Of a stretch of DNA of 7,237 bases, positions 2,654-7,237 are shown piece after piece. The DNA comes from Promethearchaeota archaeon (GTDB taxonomy: Archaea; Asgardarchaeota; Thorarchaeia; Thorarchaeales; Thorarchaeaceae): positions 348-7,584 of the forward strand of contig JALVPN010000013.1 in assembly GCA_027031765.1 (NCBI GenBank). Direction: 5' to 3'. Under the pieces are notes generated by a model. The model worked only from the letters and a program-made list of their open reading frames with translations, was not told the origin of the DNA and ran no database searches. Each line of letters opens with the position of its first letter. The stretch's first letter is position 1. The position numbers and the translations under genes are program-made.

Positions 2654-2690
2654 GCAAAGGCTTATTTACATTTGCTATATGCGCATATAA
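2654..2690. promoter_or_regulatory. Putative (possibly bidirectional) archaeal core promoter: BRE/TATA-like elements plus 14-bp palindrome
   Basis: This is the only AT-rich patch in a GC-rich intergenic region. The plus strand reads GCAAAGG-CTTATTTA (purine-rich BRE-like then TATA-like). The minus strand reads GCAAATG-TAAATAAG and CTTATATG. The perfect palindrome TATATGCGCATATA lies at 2676..2689. Confidence 0.6.
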
Positions 2691-2815
2691 GAGGCCTTCC
2701 CAGTGTTGGTCTCGATGGCACGCCAATGCATCACCCCTGCGCCAAGGGATGGTGCGCTCATCAGAACCTAGACCGCTCTAACCGCAGCCCTGTCATGCGA
2801 TGGGATTGCAGGGAG

Positions 2816-3812
2816 ATGATTGGACTGGCCAGCAAGCAGACGAAGACCGGAAGGCAAAAAGAGCGCAGTCTTGGTTCGGCCGACTACTTCTGCTCCGCGT
2901 GTAACTCCAGTGATGTGTACATCGACTGGGCACGTGGTGAGGTGATATGTTCAAACTGTGGACTTGTACTCTCCGACCGCTCCATTGACATGGGCCCCGA
3001 GTGGCGTGCATTCACCGCTGACGAGCAGAACGCCCGCCAACGTGTCGGTGGCCCTATGGACTGGAGCAAGTTCGACCAGGGGCTCACCACAATCATTGGA
3101 CGCCAGAACGTCGATGCGGCAGGACGCAAACTCACATCGACCCGGCGAGCACAGATCCACAGGCTGCGGAAGTGGCAAATCCGGACCAAGGTGCACTCAT
3201 CAGACAAACGCAATCTCGCTGTGGCAATGACCGAGCTCCACAGGATAAGCTCGCAGCTCAGCATACCCTATTCCATCCGTGAAACCTCGGCGATGATTTA
3301 CAGGAAAGCACTGAGGAAACGGCTCACCCGTGGCCGTACCATCCTCGGGATGATTGCAGCCTCACTGTATCTCGCCTGTCGGGTGCACCAGGTGCCCCGG
3401 CCCTTGGAGGAGATCACGGATCAGATACACATCACTCGCAAGGAGCTGAGCCTGTGTGTACGGCTCATCCTCCGGTACCTCAACCTGAAAATCCCCCACA
3501 GCAACCCTGTGGAGTTCGTCCACCGCTTCGGCACCGAGCTGAACCTGCCCGGTGAGGCAAAGAGGAAGGCAATCGACATCCTCGAAAAGGCAAGAGAGGC
3601 TCGCCTCACTATCGGGAAGGACCCAAAGGGAATGGCTGCTGCTGCAATCTATGTGGCGAGCATTCTCACAGGCTCGCGTCGCACACAGCTTGAGATTGCA
3701 AGAACCGCGAGGGTCACTGAAGTGACTGTGCGGAACCGCTACAAGGAAAGCCCACTGAACTTCGCGTCAGCGGGTCCGAATGGTGGAGAAACTCGGCATC
3801 TCGACCACGTAG
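2816..3812 (+). CDS. tfb: Transcription initiation factor IIB (TFB); predicted join(2816..3749,3781..3812), ~321 aa. If unspliced, the ORF runs to 3844 with an aberrant 31-aa tail
   Basis: The Zn ribbon is CSAC...GEVICSNCGLV, the B-reader DMGPEWRAF and the B-linker RLRKWQ...RNL. Two cyclin repeats follow (RGRT...AASLYLACR; GKDP.G.AAAAIY), then the HTH TQLEIA...VTEVTVRNRYKE. The canonical end MVEKLGISTT* lies in the +1 frame at 3780..3812. The track's start at 2453 is an upstream extension; ATG 2816 (or 2795) fits normal TFB length. Confidence 0.96.
3750..3780 (+). other. 31-nt frameshifting insertion in tfb; candidate bulge-helix-bulge/loop (EndA-type) mRNA intron
   Basis: Removing it gives ...TAC AAG GAA A|TG GTG GAG AAA CTC GGC ATC TCG ACC ACG TAG. 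The intron stem is CCC-A-CUGA/UCAG-C-GGG. The 5' bulge is AA^G (3748-3750). The central helix is AGGA/UCCG (3 Watson-Crick pairs plus A.G), and the 3' bulge is AA^U (3779-3781). Cuts after the second base of each bulge give exactly the in-frame product. Confidence 0.75.
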
Positions 3813-3848
3813 CGGTCCCACAGGTGCTCCTCGCAGCACAGTAGCATT

Positions 3849-4070: not shown

Positions 4071-4184
4071 ATGGAGAGAGACCTGCCTGTTCTTCTTGAT
4101 CCTGGGCCCGCTACTGCCCCAGCCACTGGAGAAGAGCCCTCTGAGACCACACAGTGGTGCACAGCTTTTATCTATTTTCAGTGA
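4071..4184 (+). pseudogene. Probable 3' remnant of a paralog of the downstream surface-protein gene
   Basis: It translates as MERDLPVLLDPGPATAPATGEEPSETTQW..., matching the downstream gene's end GPPPSGGEAPAEDAQ* in the same frame. The TAG stop corresponds to TGG here. Confidence 0.5.
4119..4173 (+). repeat. Degenerate direct repeat, copy 1 (of 6437..6491)
   Basis: An ungapped manual alignment gives 41/55 identical bases, and 22/24 over the last 24 nt (CACAGT[G/A]GTGCACAGC[T/C]TTTATCT). The offset is 2318 nt. Confidence 0.85.
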
Positions 4185-4444
4185 TACGATGTAGTCAAGG
4201 TGTGAGGCGTACTGTCGAGTAGACGGCCAAACCGTGTGGTCTTGGTGACCGAATGGACGACGGGGGAAACCCCTGTAGCACGCCGTCCCCGTCCCATCCC
4301 TTATTGTGCGTGGTTAGTTCGCCCAGGTGGCATCGGGACTTCCCAGCCCGGACTATGCAACACCTCCAGCTGCTCGTGCGGGGCCGGCTTGTGCCAGGCC
4401 GTCGGACAGTGAAGGCCATACCAGTACATGGAGTCCAGAACACC

Positions 4445-6475
4445 ATGGTACGCATGCTGAACAAGAGCTGTATACTGCTGTTTGTAGTGCTACTGTTGGT
4501 ACCAACTGTGAGTGCACCTCACAGGCAACCTGTCAGTGTGACGAGGCATACGGCGTCCGGCATCAGGAGCATTGACCTCGTACCGAACAGGAACATGACC
4601 ACTGCCGCTGAGATCTATACGAGGATGCCCACAGAGTTCAAGTATGCCGAGCGGACGGTCACCCCACCTGACAGGTGGAACTGCCTCAACCTCACTTGGG
4701 AACACACACCGGGTGTGGAGCTCGGTTTCGGTCTTCCTGACAGAAGGGGCATACAGGCCCTCGACTACATCACTGCCACCTACGTGGCAAACTGGACACC
4801 GGACGTGCTCCCCGAAGCCGTGCACCTGCACTTGGTCTATGAGCTGAGGACAACCGGCGACTTCTCCGTTTCATGGGCCAGTTCGCTGTTCGAACTCTAC
4901 GTCTGGGCGGCTGACCCATCTGACGAGTGGGTCACACTCCACGAGTCTATGCAGCGGTACCGGTCCGAGCTCACCGTCGACCGCCCCCTCTTCGACTCTG
5001 AAATAGAAACAGTCTTTGGGGGGATGGTGGGCCAGGACGGGGGTCAGGAGGACGCCAATGACACCATACGGCTGGTCCTCGGTCTTGTGCCGACAACGCA
5101 GTTCGAGGACTATGCGGGCTCTCACCCCTGGGAGACCTTCAACGGTTCCATCACATGGACTATCCGCAGCCTCGTCTTTTCCGCCCTCTACTTTGACCTG
5201 GACCCGGAGTCTGACATCCCACACTTCGATGCCAATGGCAGTGTGCCCATCCAGACCGAACACCCCAGCACTGTCGAGTTGTCGGTTGCGGCCGATGGCT
5301 CTGTATACTCCCTCTACTCGGGGTTTGAGTTCGACATCGAGAATGTGACCACATTCATCACAAAGTGGACGGAGGACTGTACAGTGGTATGGTCTACTGC
5401 CATCACGATGGAGGACGGGTTCATCGGCCGGAAGATTGTTGCATCATCCTCAGCACTATATATTGCTGGGACAGTCCCTACGTCATGGGGTAGTCCGCTT
5501 GTGGTGGCCAAGTACGACGCTTCTGGGAACCGCCTCTGGATGACGACTTGGGCCACTGTGGGTGGCCTACACCCTGTGGCAATGGACATCATTGAAGACG
5601 AGTCACCCATTGTCCTGTGCAGGCAGGTAATCCCGGACGGTTCTCCAGAGCCCTACAGGGCAGTCCTCGTCCGGTTTGACAGTAGTGGGACAAAGATGTG
5701 GAACCAGACTATCCGTGACTTACTTGACAGGTGGCATGTGCCAACCGACATGGCCTGTGATGGCAAAGGGCACATCTATGTTGCCACCATGTCTGCTAGC
5801 CTTACTTGCTGGTCATACAACGGGACGCAGCTCTGGGCTGCGCGTGGATACCCTATGATTGGAGCGAACGCTGATGGTGTCTTCTCCATAGGTGCGAGCA
5901 ACACGAACTCCCCTATGTCTGTGCAGTTTGTCAACAGTACCGGTTCTGTCGAGTGGCAGAGGGAGTACTACTTCAACTACTCCGTGGTCTGGTGGGGCGA
6001 CGGGGTCACACCGTTTGAACTGATACCAGCACCCGGTGGCGGGATATACGTGCTGGCCCTACGCCAGCCCTACGACAGCACCTGGCGTGTCATGCGTCTT
6101 GAACGCAACGGGTCAATCTCTTGGTCGCAGGTGGTCGCACGCACTGACGGGCGCGAGTCCAACTACTTCACGTCCGTGGACATCGCGGCCGGCTCGGAAG
6201 GACACATATACGTTGCCAGGCGCGGCATCTCTCCTCCTGTCCTTGAGGTGGGTGTCTTCACCGACCCGCTCTATACGTCGGGGTCGGGCCTGCCAGCGTT
6301 CACGTTGTCCCCCGAGATGCTGGTATACGTCGGGGTCGCAGTGGTTGCTGTGGCCATCCCACTCGACTACCTGCGGAGGAGGCGGCTGGCAGCCAATGTC
6401 CCGGGGCCGCCTGAGACCGGCGACAGTGGCCCGCCACCAAGCGGTGGAGAGGCCCCTGCTGAGGACGCACAGTAG
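4445..6475 (+). CDS. Secreted, C-terminally membrane-anchored surface glycoprotein with a beta-propeller domain (~675 aa)
   Basis: The signal peptide (MVR)MLNKSCILLFVVLLLVPTVSA places the start at 4445 or 4454, not 4253. Repeated propeller blades follow: VAKYDASGNRLW, LVRFDSSGTKMW, LTCWSYNGTQLW, VQFVNSTGSVEW and VMRLERNGSISW. There are 12 N-x-S/T sequons in the mature part. The TM helix MLVYVGVAVVAVAIPL is followed by RRRR and a Pro/Gly/acidic tail. Confidence 0.85.
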   Translation: MVRMLNKSCILLFVVLLLVPTVSAPHRQPVSVTRHTASGIRSIDLVPNRNMTTAAEIYTRMPTEFKYAERTVTPPDRWNCLNLTWEHTPGVELGFGLPDRRGIQALDYITATYVANWTPDVLPEAVHLHLVYELRTTGDFSVSWASSLFELYVWAADPSDEWVTLHESMQRYRSELTVDRPLFDSEIETVFGGMVGQDGGQEDANDTIRLVLGLVPTTQFEDYAGSHPWETFNGSITWTIRSLVFSALYFDLDPESDIPHFDANGSVPIQTEHPSTVELSVAADGSVYSLYSGFEFDIENVTTFITKWTEDCTVVWSTAITMEDGFIGRKIVASSSALYIAGTVPTSWGSPLVVAKYDASGNRLWMTTWATVGGLHPVAMDIIEDESPIVLCRQVIPDGSPEPYRAVLVRFDSSGTKMWNQTIRDLLDRWHVPTDMACDGKGHIYVATMSASLTCWSYNGTQLWAARGYPMIGANADGVFSIGASNTNSPMSVQFVNSTGSVEWQREYYFNYSVVWWGDGVTPFELIPAPGGGIYVLALRQPYDSTWRVMRLERNGSISWSQVVARTDGRESNYFTSVDIAAGSEGHIYVARRGISPPVLEVGVFTDPLYTSGSGLPAFTLSPEMLVYVGVAVVAVAIPLDYLRRRRLAANVPGPPETGDSGPPPSGGEAPAEDAQ

Positions 6476-6491
6476 TGCACAGCCTTTATCT
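6437..6491 (+). repeat. Degenerate direct repeat, copy 2 (covers the last 12 codons, stop and downstream TATA-like box)
   Basis: Aligns without gaps to 4119..4173 (41/55 identical). Confidence 0.85.
6484..6491 (+). promoter_or_regulatory. TATA-like box CTTTATCT for the longin-like gene
   Basis: AT-rich box 37 nt before TTG 6529, a distance that fits an archaeal promoter with a short 5' UTR. Confidence 0.4.
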
Positions 6492-6528
6492 CCTCCCAGT
6501 TGCATCATGAGGACGGGTGCTAACCATA

Positions 6529-7237
6529 TTGTCCAGTCGGCGGTCAATCTATGGGGTCTGGGTGATTGATAGGCGGACGGGCCGGAACCTTGTGGCGCGG
6601 GCGTATACGGACGTCGACATCGACATGGACCTGATTGCGCCGTTCCTGTCAGCAACACACACTTTCATCGACCACGCCTCCAACGAGCACCTCCGTACAA
6701 TTGAGACCGAGCACAGCCGCTATGTGTGGGTGGCAAACGAACACCTCCTGCTGGTGGCGGTGGTGTCGACGAGCGCACGCGTCGGGCACATGCGCTTCAT
6801 GCTGAAATATGCGCTGGAGTCCTTCATGGAGTCCGAGGTGCGTGCCAAGAACAAGTCCATTGACACAGTCTTGGGCGAGTGGACGGGGGGGCCCGCCAAG
6901 TTCCGCAAGTTCGGTCGGTTCCTCGACGAGCTCGTGGCCCAGTACGAGGTGGCCGACGAGAGCCTGCTTGCTGGAAAAGCAATGGACTGCCTTGAGGTCT
7001 ACAGCCATCTCATCAGGGCCCTCATCAGGTCGCCAGCCACCGAGCCCGCCCGTCAGGACATCCTCCGGCGTGTCCGTCAGGACACCCGCCCACTGGTCGA
7101 GCAGCATGACATCCTCTCTGAGATGGTGATTGACCAGTACGGGATTGACATCCTCCCGATTGGGTCCAGAATCCTTGAGTTGCAGGACAGCAGGAAGTAC
7201 AAGACCTTCCGGGTCGCTTTGGAAGAGCTGTTCCGAA
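6529..7237 (+). CDS. Longin-like-domain protein (3'-truncated; absent from the ORF track)
   Basis: The frame is open from 6511 to the window end. It reads MSSRRSIYGVWVIDRRTGRNLVARAYTDVDIDMDLIAPFLSATHTFIDHASNEHLRTIETEHSRYVWVANEHLLLVAVVSTSARVGHMRFMLKYALESFMESE... This fits the longin order beta-beta-alpha(DLIAPFLSA)-beta-beta-beta-alpha, followed by a helical region. The start is TTG 6529 or GTG 6517. Confidence 0.75.
   Translation, partial: MSSRRSIYGVWVIDRRTGRNLVARAYTDVDIDMDLIAPFLSATHTFIDHASNEHLRTIETEHSRYVWVANEHLLLVAVVSTSARVGHMRFMLKYALESFMESEVRAKNKSIDTVLGEWTGGPAKFRKFGRFLDELVAQYEVADESLLAGKAMDCLEVYSHLIRALIRSPATEPARQDILRRVRQDTRPLVEQHDILSEMVIDQYGIDILPIGSRILELQDSRKYKTFRVALEELFR

What the first reader, a model, noticed from the sequence alone, without database searches (positions are those of the whole stretch)
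3736..3812. Candidate tRNA-type (BHB/BHL) intron in the mRNA of the general transcription factor TFB
Seen: the TFB frame leaves family consensus right after RNRYKE. The expected end (MVEKLGISTT*) resumes 31 nt later in the +1 frame. The insert forms a hairpin (3751-3758 with 3767-3774). It also pairs back to the upstream exon (GGA 3745-47 with UCC 3775-77, plus A3744.G3778), leaving 3-nt bulges AAG and AAU. Cutting after the second base of each bulge removes exactly 3750..3780 and regenerates GAA-A|TG. Established: archaeal EndA cuts BHB and relaxed BHL motifs at those positions, and mRNA introns of this kind are rare, cbf5 of some Crenarchaeota being the known case. Inference: this is a spliced mRNA intron in a probable Asgard archaeon. 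Caveat: the outer central pair is A.G and the exon helix is weak (CUAC/GUGG or CCGCUA/UGGUGG), so the motif is relaxed rather than canonical.
Basis: partly seen in the sequence, partly recalled or inferred. Interest (0 to 1): 0.93.

Follow-up and report, generated by a model that had tools for sequence, protein, structure and literature searches.

The report
tRNA-type mini-intron in Thorarchaeota tfb
The best-conserved gene for transcription factor TFB in one Thorarchaeota (Asgard archaeon) genome is broken near its end by a 31-base hairpin built like this organism's own tRNA introns. It is therefore most likely cut out of the mRNA by the tRNA-splicing enzymes, a route published for only one archaeal coding sequence (cbf5); no RNA data exist to prove it.

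Summary
The tfb frame leaves consensus after RNRYKE, and removing 3750-3780 (31 nt) restores KEMVEKLGISTT*, the tail that Thorarchaeota orthologues share.

- **Unique insert.** It is absent from about 95 orthologue loci. No insert of 12-42 nt at this site turned up in 399 other Asgard species genomes, none of 20-45 nt in JGI metagenome contigs, and no other public protein carries the read-through tail.
- **Real DNA.** An independent Logan contig of the source run spans it without a difference.
- **Geometry.** It has 3 central pairs plus A.G, bulges AAG and AAU, and a 7/8-bp inner hairpin. Random 31-mers reach this in 0.08% of trials; 0.36% if the hairpin is kept.
- **Host context.** The genome holds about 20 non-canonical tRNA mini-introns (19-35 nt, most 28-32) and a 45-nt 16S rRNA intron. 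Several have the same or weaker central helices. tRNA-Thr(GGU) shares the flanks AGGA...NCCGAA|U.
- **Machinery.** Two EndA-family genes and RtcB are present.
- **Weak points.** There is no RNA evidence and no covariation, because it is a singleton. The local fold is not exceptional (z -0.63), and no further mRNA introns were found here.

Verdict: a recently gained BHB-type pre-mRNA intron, confidence about 0.7. It is a new member of a known kind. Earlier notes of this scan report similar mini-introns in other Asgard genomes.

The parts
2816..3749 (+). tfb exon 1: Zn-ribbon plus two TFIIB cyclin repeats, ending ...RNRYKE plus the first base of the Met codon
   Evidence: Translation. Pfam PF08271 and PF00382. 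81-91% identical to most Thorarchaeota orthologues, whose proteins start MIGLAS....
3750..3780 (+). 31-nt insert, the candidate BHB/HBh' mini-intron (GCCCACUGAACUUCGCGUCAGCGGGUCCGAA)
   Evidence: Absent from all orthologues. Removal restores KEMVEKLGISTT*. Present in an independent Logan contig. No other copy in the genome.
3781..3812 (+). tfb exon 2: (A)UG GUG GAG AAA CUC GGC AUC UCG ACC ACG UAG = MVEKLGISTT*
   Evidence: It equals the majority residue at all 10 positions of 59 distinct orthologue sequences.
3744..3747 (+). 5' strand of the central helix (AGGA, exon 1). It pairs with 3775-3778 (UCCG, intron 3' end): 3 pairs plus A3744.G3778
   Evidence: G3745-C3777 and G3746-C3776 have probability 0.99.
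3748..3750 (+). 5' bulge AAG; predicted cut after A3749
   Evidence: BHB register. The same bulge type aa|g occurs in tRNA-Lys(UUU).
3751..3774 (+). Inner hairpin h' (3751-3758 with 3767-3774, 7 of 8 pairs, 8-nt loop)
   Evidence: pair probabilities 0.79-0.996; -9.5 kcal/mol alone.
3775..3778 (+). 3' strand of the central helix (UCCG)
3779..3781 (+). 3' bulge AAU; predicted cut after A3780
   Evidence: aa|t is the commonest 3' bulge among the validated introns: Asn, Leu(UAA), Gly(CCC), Thr(GGU).
3736..3741 (+). Exon-exon outer helix CCGCUA pairing with UGGUGG (3781-3786). This is the favoured alternative to CUAC/GUGG

Best explanation
The 31 nt at 3750-3780 are a recently acquired archaeal endonuclease-type (bulge-helix-bulge, relaxed HBh') mini-intron in the coding sequence of the core TFB gene of a Thorarchaeota archaeon.

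Proposed mechanism (inferred):
1. In the pre-mRNA the intron hairpin stacks on a short helix formed between exon-1 AGGA and the intron's 3' UCCG.
2. This presents two 3-nt bulges, AAG and AAU, four helix positions apart.
3. The two-subunit splicing endonuclease cuts after A3749 and after A3780.
4. RtcB joins the exons to give ...AAG GAA AUG GUG..., which encodes the conserved end KEMVEKLGISTT*.
5. Unspliced mRNA would give a TFB in which an unrelated 31-residue tail replaces the last 10 conserved residues.

Shown: the insert, its geometry, its uniqueness, its likeness to the host's bona fide introns, and the presence of the enzymes.

Inferred: cleavage and ligation in vivo, and an origin by transposition of a tRNA-type intron.
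For: 1. Removal restores the tail exactly. About 95 orthologue loci read RNRYKE + a tail of about 10 residues without an insert. Each tail position has a clear majority residue in 59 distinct sequences (46-59 of 59), and exon 2 of the window equals the majority at all 10.

2. The insert is in the DNA. A 588-nt Logan contig (depth 8.8) of the holder run covers 3400-3844 with 0 differences, and no insert-less contig appears.

3. BHB geometry sits in the register that restores the frame: 0.077% of random inserts reach it, 0.36% given the hairpin.

4. The host is full of such introns.
- ARAGORN finds only 20 tRNAs; Infernal finds 35-39.
- About 20 non-canonical hairpin introns, 19-35 nt with most 28-32, were validated by BHB scan plus ARAGORN. 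Two were confirmed by Infernal alignment.
- There is also a 45-nt BHB intron in 16S rRNA.

5. The same deviations occur in tRNA introns at the sites where the only ARAGORN- or Infernal-detectable genes for those anticodons lie.
- Asn(GUU) and Lys(CUU) have A.G at the outer central pair and no outer helix.
- Thr(GGU) reads AGGA ag|a...GCCG aa|u with only 2 of 4 central pairs. Its flanks nearly match those of tfb, AGGA aa|g...UCCG aa|u.

6. Machinery: two PF01974/PF02778 EndA-family genes of different size and RtcB. Asgard EndA is described as (alpha-beta)2 with the L1 loop that gives broad specificity (PMC5829648).

7. The gene looks alive.
- Exon 1 is intact.
- Its end branch is 0.12, against a median of 0.068, and within the range of other single-genus rows.
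- Synteny with ArgRS is kept in 93 of 100 loci.

8. Precedent: cbf5 introns are 16-44 bp and are cut by hetero-oligomeric EndA (PMC2738675). A BHB intron lies in the HVO_1309 5' UTR (PMC7714728).
Against: - There are no RNA data, so no junction or circular intron has been seen.
- It is a singleton. None of 399 other Asgard species genomes has a 12-42-nt insert at this site, none of the JGI contigs a 20-45-nt one, and no other public protein has the read-through tail. There is therefore neither conservation nor covariation, and a very recent disabling insertion cannot be excluded.
- The motif is relaxed: A.G in the central helix, and the favoured outer helix turns the 3' bulge into a 3x3 internal loop. 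The fold energy is ordinary (z -0.63) and the exact BHB lies 5.3 kcal/mol above the minimum-free-energy fold.
- A scan for further frame-joining BHB candidates gave 85 hits against 90-109 in shifted controls.
- cbf5, rtcB and rpoA' are uninterrupted here.
- Six TFB paralogues could buffer a loss.
Confidence: 0.7

Rival explanations
1. A real but unspliced, or poorly spliced, insertion. A 31-nt hairpin, perhaps itself a stray intron copy, landed in tfb very recently. The gene now makes a TFB with an aberrant 31-residue tail or is turning into a pseudogene, and paralogous TFBs cover the function.
For: - It is a singleton with no conservation.
- The motif is relaxed and the fold energy ordinary.
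- There are six TFB paralogues in the genome.
- No other mRNA intron was detected here.
- The read-through frame stays open for 31 codons.
Against: - The geometry is as good as or better than that of introns in tRNA genes with no detected intron-free copy, so EndA should cut it wherever it folds.
- The tail it removes is conserved in the ~95 orthologue loci read.
- Exon 1 shows no accelerated change.
- No insert-less allele appears in the run's contigs.
Confidence: 0.2
2. An assembly or sequencing artefact, or a minority strain variant fixed by the assembler.
For: The genome is a MAG of 229 contigs. The only holder run is probably the source sample, so the Logan contig is not an independent sample.
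Against: - A different assembler reproduces 3400-3844 exactly at depth about 9.
- The unitig does not break at the insert borders, as it would if an insert-less allele were common.
- An artefact would not be expected to have BHB geometry.
Confidence: 0.05
3. Translational recoding instead of splicing: a +1 frameshift near CCG-A-AUG giving a 10-residue insertion, or a ribosomal hop over the hairpin.
For: A stable hairpin lies between the two frames. GAA occurs both at 3746-3748 and at 3778-3780.
Against: - Landing on GAA 3778-3780 resumes in the wrong frame (UGG UGG...), not on AUG 3780.
- There is no slippery or hungry-codon +1 motif at CCG AAU.
- No relative has the extra 10 residues (read directly from the sequence).
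Confidence: 0.02
4. The hairpin is the edge of a mobile element that integrated into the 3' end of tfb and brought a replacement exon 2.
For: A 2.3-kb lineage-specific segment lies between tfb and its usual downstream neighbour.
Against: - That segment is bounded by 56-nt direct repeats at 4127-4182 and 6445-6500, starting 315 nt past the tfb stop.
- It carries a secreted beta-propeller-like ORF with paralogues, and no integrase or transposase.
- No second copy of exon 2 or its peptide exists in the assembly.
Confidence: 0.03

Closest known systems
cbf5 pre-mRNA intron of Crenarchaeota (Desulfurococcales, Sulfolobales; Watanabe 2002; Yoshinari 2006; Yokobori 2009, PMC2738675)
   Same: A short (16-44 bp) endonuclease-type intron lies inside a protein-coding sequence. 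Its motif is relaxed and needs a hetero-oligomeric EndA, and it disrupts a conserved part of the protein.
   Different: The gene is tfb and the phylum is Asgard/Thorarchaeota. This is a singleton gained after genus divergence, not an ancestral intron shared by orders. Splicing has not been shown. cbf5 of this genome is uninterrupted.
Non-canonical tRNA introns and the 16S rRNA mini-intron of the same genome
   Same: They share the size class (most 28-32 nt), the hairpin with 1 nt before it and 6 nt after it, the A-rich bulges and the relaxed central helix. tRNA-Thr(GGU) shares AGGA...NCCGAA|U.
   Different: The host RNA is an mRNA without a tRNA body. The intron sequence itself matches no other intron (best 13-nt hit).
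BHB intron in the 5' UTR of Haloferax volcanii HVO_1309 mRNA (Schwarz 2020, PMC7714728)
   Same: EndA acts on an mRNA in vivo and in vitro.
   Different: That intron lies in the UTR, not the coding sequence, of a euryarchaeon with alpha'2 EndA and a canonical BHB.
HAC1/XBP1 unconventional mRNA splicing (Ire1 plus tRNA ligase/RtcB) in eukaryotes
   Same: Protein-only cut-and-ligate splicing of a short frame-shifting intron changes the C-terminus of a transcription factor. In metazoa the ligase is RtcB.
   Different: The nuclease is Ire1 and the motif is twin stem-loops, not BHB. This is an analogy, not homology of the intron.

Membership tests
Archaeal endonuclease-type (BHB) intron, canonical hBHBh' | Two 3-nt bulges separated by a 4-bp helix and flanked by two further helices | tested here: not met
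   The central helix has 3 pairs plus A3744.G3778. The outer helix in the canonical register has probability about 0.001. The favoured outer helix gives a 3x3 loop at the 3' site.
Archaeal endonuclease-type intron, relaxed form (HBh'/BHL) | At least one well-formed bulge next to the central helix and an intron-internal helix, with the cut sites four helix positions apart | tested here: met
   The 5' bulge AAG lies between H (3 pairs) and a 7/8-bp h'. The second site AAU sits at the symmetric position. 0.077% of random inserts do as well.
Archaeal endonuclease-type intron in a coding sequence (cbf5-like) | Excision at the predicted sites restores the conserved reading frame | tested here: met
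   KEMVEKLGISTT* is restored, equal to the orthologue majority at all 10 tail residues.
Archaeal endonuclease-type intron in a coding sequence (cbf5-like) | The host has a broad-specificity splicing endonuclease and an RNA ligase | tested here: met
   Two EndA-family genes with PF02778 and PF01974 (about 150 aa and about 185 aa) and RtcB. The subunit roles and the L1 loop were not examined here; they come from the literature (PMC5829648).
Archaeal endonuclease-type intron in a coding sequence (cbf5-like) | Spliced mRNA, or cleavage by EndA, is demonstrated | not testable with these tools
   No RNA run holds the locus.
Archaeal endonuclease-type intron in a coding sequence (cbf5-like) | The intron is kept in relatives with compensatory changes | tested here: not met
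   It is a singleton: 0 of about 95 orthologue loci, 0 of 399 Asgard genomes (12-42-nt inserts), 0 JGI contigs (20-45-nt inserts).
This genome's own mini-intron population | Length mostly 28-32 nt, hairpin type, A-rich bulges, relaxed H allowed | tested here: met
   31 nt, with bulges aa|g and aa|u. H is equal to or better than in Thr(GGU), Met(CAU), Asn(GUU) and Lys(CUU).

The most novel reading that the evidence does not exclude
This would be a snapshot of ongoing intron spread in an Asgard archaeon. A tRNA-type mini-intron has just moved into an mRNA, at a site (AGGAA|U) that mimics the exon context of the host's tRNA-Thr(GGU) intron. That would imply a sequence- or structure-guided insertion mechanism such as reverse splicing by EndA and RtcB followed by copying into DNA. 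The production of the main transcription initiation factor would now depend on the tRNA-splicing machinery, as an HAC1/XBP1-like control point.
Probability: 0.25. Interest if true: 0.85.

Novelty: new member of a known kind. Interest (0 to 1): 0.62.

Why it matters
In the papers I could search, endonuclease-type introns in archaeal mRNAs are limited to cbf5 of some Crenarchaeota and one Haloferax 5' UTR (PMC7714728, PMC2738675).

A frame-breaking intron in the general transcription factor TFB of an Asgard archaeon would add three things:
- It would extend protein-only mRNA splicing to the archaeal lineage closest to eukaryotes.
- It would tie the output of a core transcription factor to EndA and RtcB.
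- Because it is a singleton in a genome crowded with look-alike tRNA and rRNA mini-introns, it offers a dated, recent intron-gain event for studying how such introns move.

There is also a practical point. Gene callers mis-annotate such genes: the public protein here is a 390-aa read-through product called from an upstream TTG.

Tried and rejected
- **RNA evidence.** No RNA holder is listed for the locus. Only contigs of a DNA run could be laid.
- **Same insert elsewhere.** I found none.
  - Exact and short BLAST of the 31 nt in the genome gave a best hit of 13 nt.
  - The read-through tail is in no other public protein.
  - A degenerate pattern allowing a 20-45-nt insert at KE|MV gave 0 hits in JGI metagenome contigs. 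A pattern allowing 12-42 nt matched only G000 among 400 Asgard genomes.
- **More mRNA introns in this genome.**
  - A genome-wide BHB scan gave 227,619 loose candidates.
  - ORF-fusion tests gave 1,099 against about 1,100 in controls, and with a coding-potential filter 85 against 90-109. There is no enrichment.
  - The top hits I read (C27, C7, C199) are operon junctions with an RBS and overlapping stop and start codons.
- **Genes with introns in other Asgard genomes, per earlier notes.** Here rpoA'/A'', rtcB and cbf5 are uninterrupted.
- **Mobile-element edge.** Rejected.
- **Ribosomal hop or +1 frameshift.** Rejected on frame logic.
- **Automatic picking of tRNA introns by ARAGORN after single deletions.** This was too permissive. 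I kept only solutions with a strong hairpin and a plausible mature length, and confirmed two by Infernal.

Full report
**Observation.** Window 2816-3844 encodes a TFB with a Zn-ribbon and two TFIIB repeats.
- After ...VTEVTVRNRYKE (GAA at 3746-3748) the frame continues as SPLNFASAGPNGGETRHLDHVAVPQVLLAAQ*.
- The +1 frame from 3780 reads MVEKLGISTT*.
- Removing 3750-3780 (31 nt) gives AAG GAA A|TG GTG... = KEMVEKLGISTT*.

**Who and where.** The window is contig C13 of a 2.95-Mb MAG (95% complete, 229 contigs, 59% GC).
- Its relatives are titled Candidatus Thorarchaeota.
- The only run that holds it is a hydrothermal-vent metagenome.

**Is the tail really the family consensus?** Yes.
- 23 orthologue loci from 15 other genera of the family read RNRYKE followed directly by a tail of about 10 residues. 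So do 72 further Thorarchaeota loci from the search for related loci, some of which are the same genomes.
- In 59 distinct sequences each of the 10 tail positions has a clear majority residue (46-59 of 59).
- Exon 2 of the window equals the majority at all 10 positions and ends in a stop, while synonymous sites vary freely.

**Is the insert real and how widespread?**
- A Logan contig of 588 nt at depth 8.8, made by another assembler from the holder run, covers 3400-3844 with no difference. It does not break at the insert borders, and no insert-less contig is seen. That run is probably the source sample, so this argues against an assembly artefact but is not an independent sample.
- The insert is a singleton.
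  - No other protein among the 15 billion carries the read-through tail. The window's own product is on record as a 390-aa protein called from TTG 2672.
  - A degenerate pattern allowing a 20-45-nt insert at KE|MV found nothing in JGI metagenome contigs.
  - A pattern allowing 12-42 nt matched only G000 among 400 Asgard species genomes, 85 of them other species of the same family.
- The gain therefore post-dates the split of this genus, and neither conservation nor covariation can be tested.

**Structure.** In the BHB register the parts are:
- central helix A3747-U3775, G3746-C3776, G3745-C3777 and the mismatch A3744.G3778;
- bulges AAG (3748-3750) and AAU (3779-3781);
- inner hairpin 3751-3758 with 3767-3774, 7 of 8 pairs.

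In the thermodynamic ensemble:
- the hairpin and the two G-C pairs are near-certain (0.99);
- A3747-U3775 (0.45) alternates with G3750.U3775 (0.53);
- the outer helix is CCGCUA/UGGUGG (0.88-0.96), not CUAC/GUGG (0.001);
- the exact BHB scores -14.9 kcal/mol against the minimum free energy of -20.2;
- the fold as a whole is not exceptional (z -0.63).

The geometry is nevertheless far from chance.
- Only 0.077% of random 31-mers at this site reach H>=3 plus 7/8 inner pairs in a register that yields the same spliced product.
- The figure is 0.36% if the hairpin is kept and only its placement and 7 flanking bases are shuffled.
- Genome-wide, such motifs occur at about 8e-4 per site and length.

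**The host's own introns.** This is the strongest argument.
- ARAGORN finds only 20 tRNA genes and Infernal 35-39, because many are split at non-canonical sites.
- I ran a BHB scan and then ARAGORN on the spliced sequence. This validated about 20 hairpin mini-introns in D-loops, variable regions and T-loops: Ala, Phe, Val, Thr x2, Asn x2, Lys x2, Pro x2, Asp, Tyr, Arg, Leu x2, Ser, Gly, Met. They measure 19-35 nt, most 28-32.
- Infernal alignments place inserts of about 30 nt in the variable regions of tRNA-Lys(CUU) and tRNA-Thr(GGU), where I had them.
- The 16S rRNA carries a 45-nt canonical BHB intron that splits the universal GCUGAA|ACUUAAAGG block.
- The tfb insert (31 nt; 1 nt, then the hairpin, then 6 nt; bulges aa|g and aa|u) fits this population.
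- Its deviations recur in tRNA genes for which no intron-free copy was detected.
  - Asn(GUU), AGUU gu|a...GACG aa|u, and Lys(CUU) both have A.G at the outer central pair and no outer helix.
  - Thr(GGU) reads AGGA ag|a...GCCG aa|u with only 2 of 4 central pairs, against tfb AGGA aa|g...UCCG aa|u.
- So the local endonuclease must accept substrates at least this relaxed.

**Machinery.**
- Two EndA-family genes have N- and C-terminal domains: a 150-aa ORF on C38, and about 185 aa within a longer open frame on C40.
- RtcB is present.
- This fits the (alpha-beta)2 EndA with the L1 loop reported for Asgard archaea (PMC5829648).

**Is the gene alive?**
- Exon 1 is intact and up to 91% identical to orthologues.
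- Its end branch is 0.12, against a median of 0.068. Other single-genus rows have 0.10-0.24.
- ArgRS lies divergently upstream in 93 of 100 orthologue loci.

**Rivals.**
- Unspliced recent insertion or nascent pseudogene. It cannot be excluded, given a singleton, six TFB paralogues and no RNA. It does not explain why a random insertion would have intron geometry and size.
- Artefact. Unlikely.
- Recoding. A hop from GAA 3746 to GAA 3778 lands out of frame, and there is no +1 motif.
  - There is a 2.3-kb lineage-specific segment downstream. In 41 of 46 relatives the longin-like gene at 6517 follows tfb directly.
  - It is bounded by 56-nt direct repeats at 4127-4182 and 6445-6500, starting 315 nt past the stop.
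  - It carries a secreted beta-propeller-like ORF with paralogues and no integrase.
  - No second exon 2 exists in the assembly.

**Further mRNA introns here?** None was detected.
- Frame-joining BHB candidates are no commoner than in shifted controls.
- The top hits I read are operon junctions.
- cbf5, rtcB and rpoA'/A'' are uninterrupted.
- My scan cannot see in-frame introns or ones near gene ends.

**Comparison with what is known.**
- The kind is known. cbf5 pre-mRNA introns are 16-44 bp, have a relaxed motif and are cut by hetero-oligomeric EndA (PMC2738675).
- As of 2020 that was the only coding-sequence case, plus a 5' UTR intron in Haloferax (PMC7714728). My paper searches found no Asgard or TFB case.
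- Earlier notes of this scan report comparable mini-introns in protein genes of other Asgard genomes. I did not re-test those. They do not count as support, but they mean the phenomenon is not new to this scan.

**Verdict.** This is a recently gained, relaxed BHB-type intron in tfb that is most probably spliced by EndA and RtcB (confidence 0.7). It is a new member of a known kind. Interest is 0.62, limited by the lack of RNA evidence and by its being a singleton.

Noticed in passing
window 4127-6500: A 2.3-kb lineage-specific insertion lies between tfb and its usual neighbour. 56-nt direct repeats (75% identical, each holding a TTTAT-like box) at 4127-4182 and 6445-6500 flank a 740-aa ORF (4253-6475). 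The ORF has an N-terminal hydrophobic stretch, a weak SBBP beta-propeller hit and a C-terminal membrane anchor. Paralogues lie on C211 and C194. In 41 of 46 relatives the longin-like gene (6517-7236) follows tfb directly.
   Followed up: partly
G000 contig C48, about 6092-6137 (+): A 45-nt canonical BHB mini-intron in 16S rRNA splits the universal GCUGAA|ACUUAAAGGAAUUGGCGG block. It has central helix GCUG/CAGC, a 10-bp inner stem, and bulges AAA and AGA.
   Followed up: yes
G000 C217:37436-37465 (tRNA-Thr GGU) and C217:56481-56511 (tRNA-Met CAU): These are variable-region introns of 30 and 31 nt with very weak central helices (2 of 4 pairs), both ending GCCGAA. The Thr intron shares the exon context AGGA-A with the tfb insert, which may hint at a common insertion-site preference.
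   Followed up: partly
G000 whole genome: ARAGORN sees only 20 tRNA genes in a 95%-complete genome. Most of the rest carry one or two 28-32-nt hairpin introns at D-loop, variable-region or T-loop sites. Standard annotation will under-call tRNAs here.
   Followed up: partly
window 3729-3742 and 3809-3822: An inverted repeat (12 of 14 complementary) pairs the end of exon 1 with the stop-codon region and so encloses the intron and exon 2. It could be chance, a terminator-like stem, or a clamp that brings the exons together.
   Followed up: no
window 2672-3844: The public protein record for this gene is a 390-aa product called from TTG 2672 with the read-through tail. Orthologues start MIGLAS..., which corresponds to ATG 2816. 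Both ends of the annotated protein are therefore probably wrong.
   Followed up: yes
window 6517-7236: The conserved neighbour of tfb gives a weak hit to the first longin domain of FUZ/MON1/HPS1 (E 3e-4, below the cut-off). It may be an Asgard 'eukaryotic signature' protein. The gene continues on contig C32.
   Followed up: no
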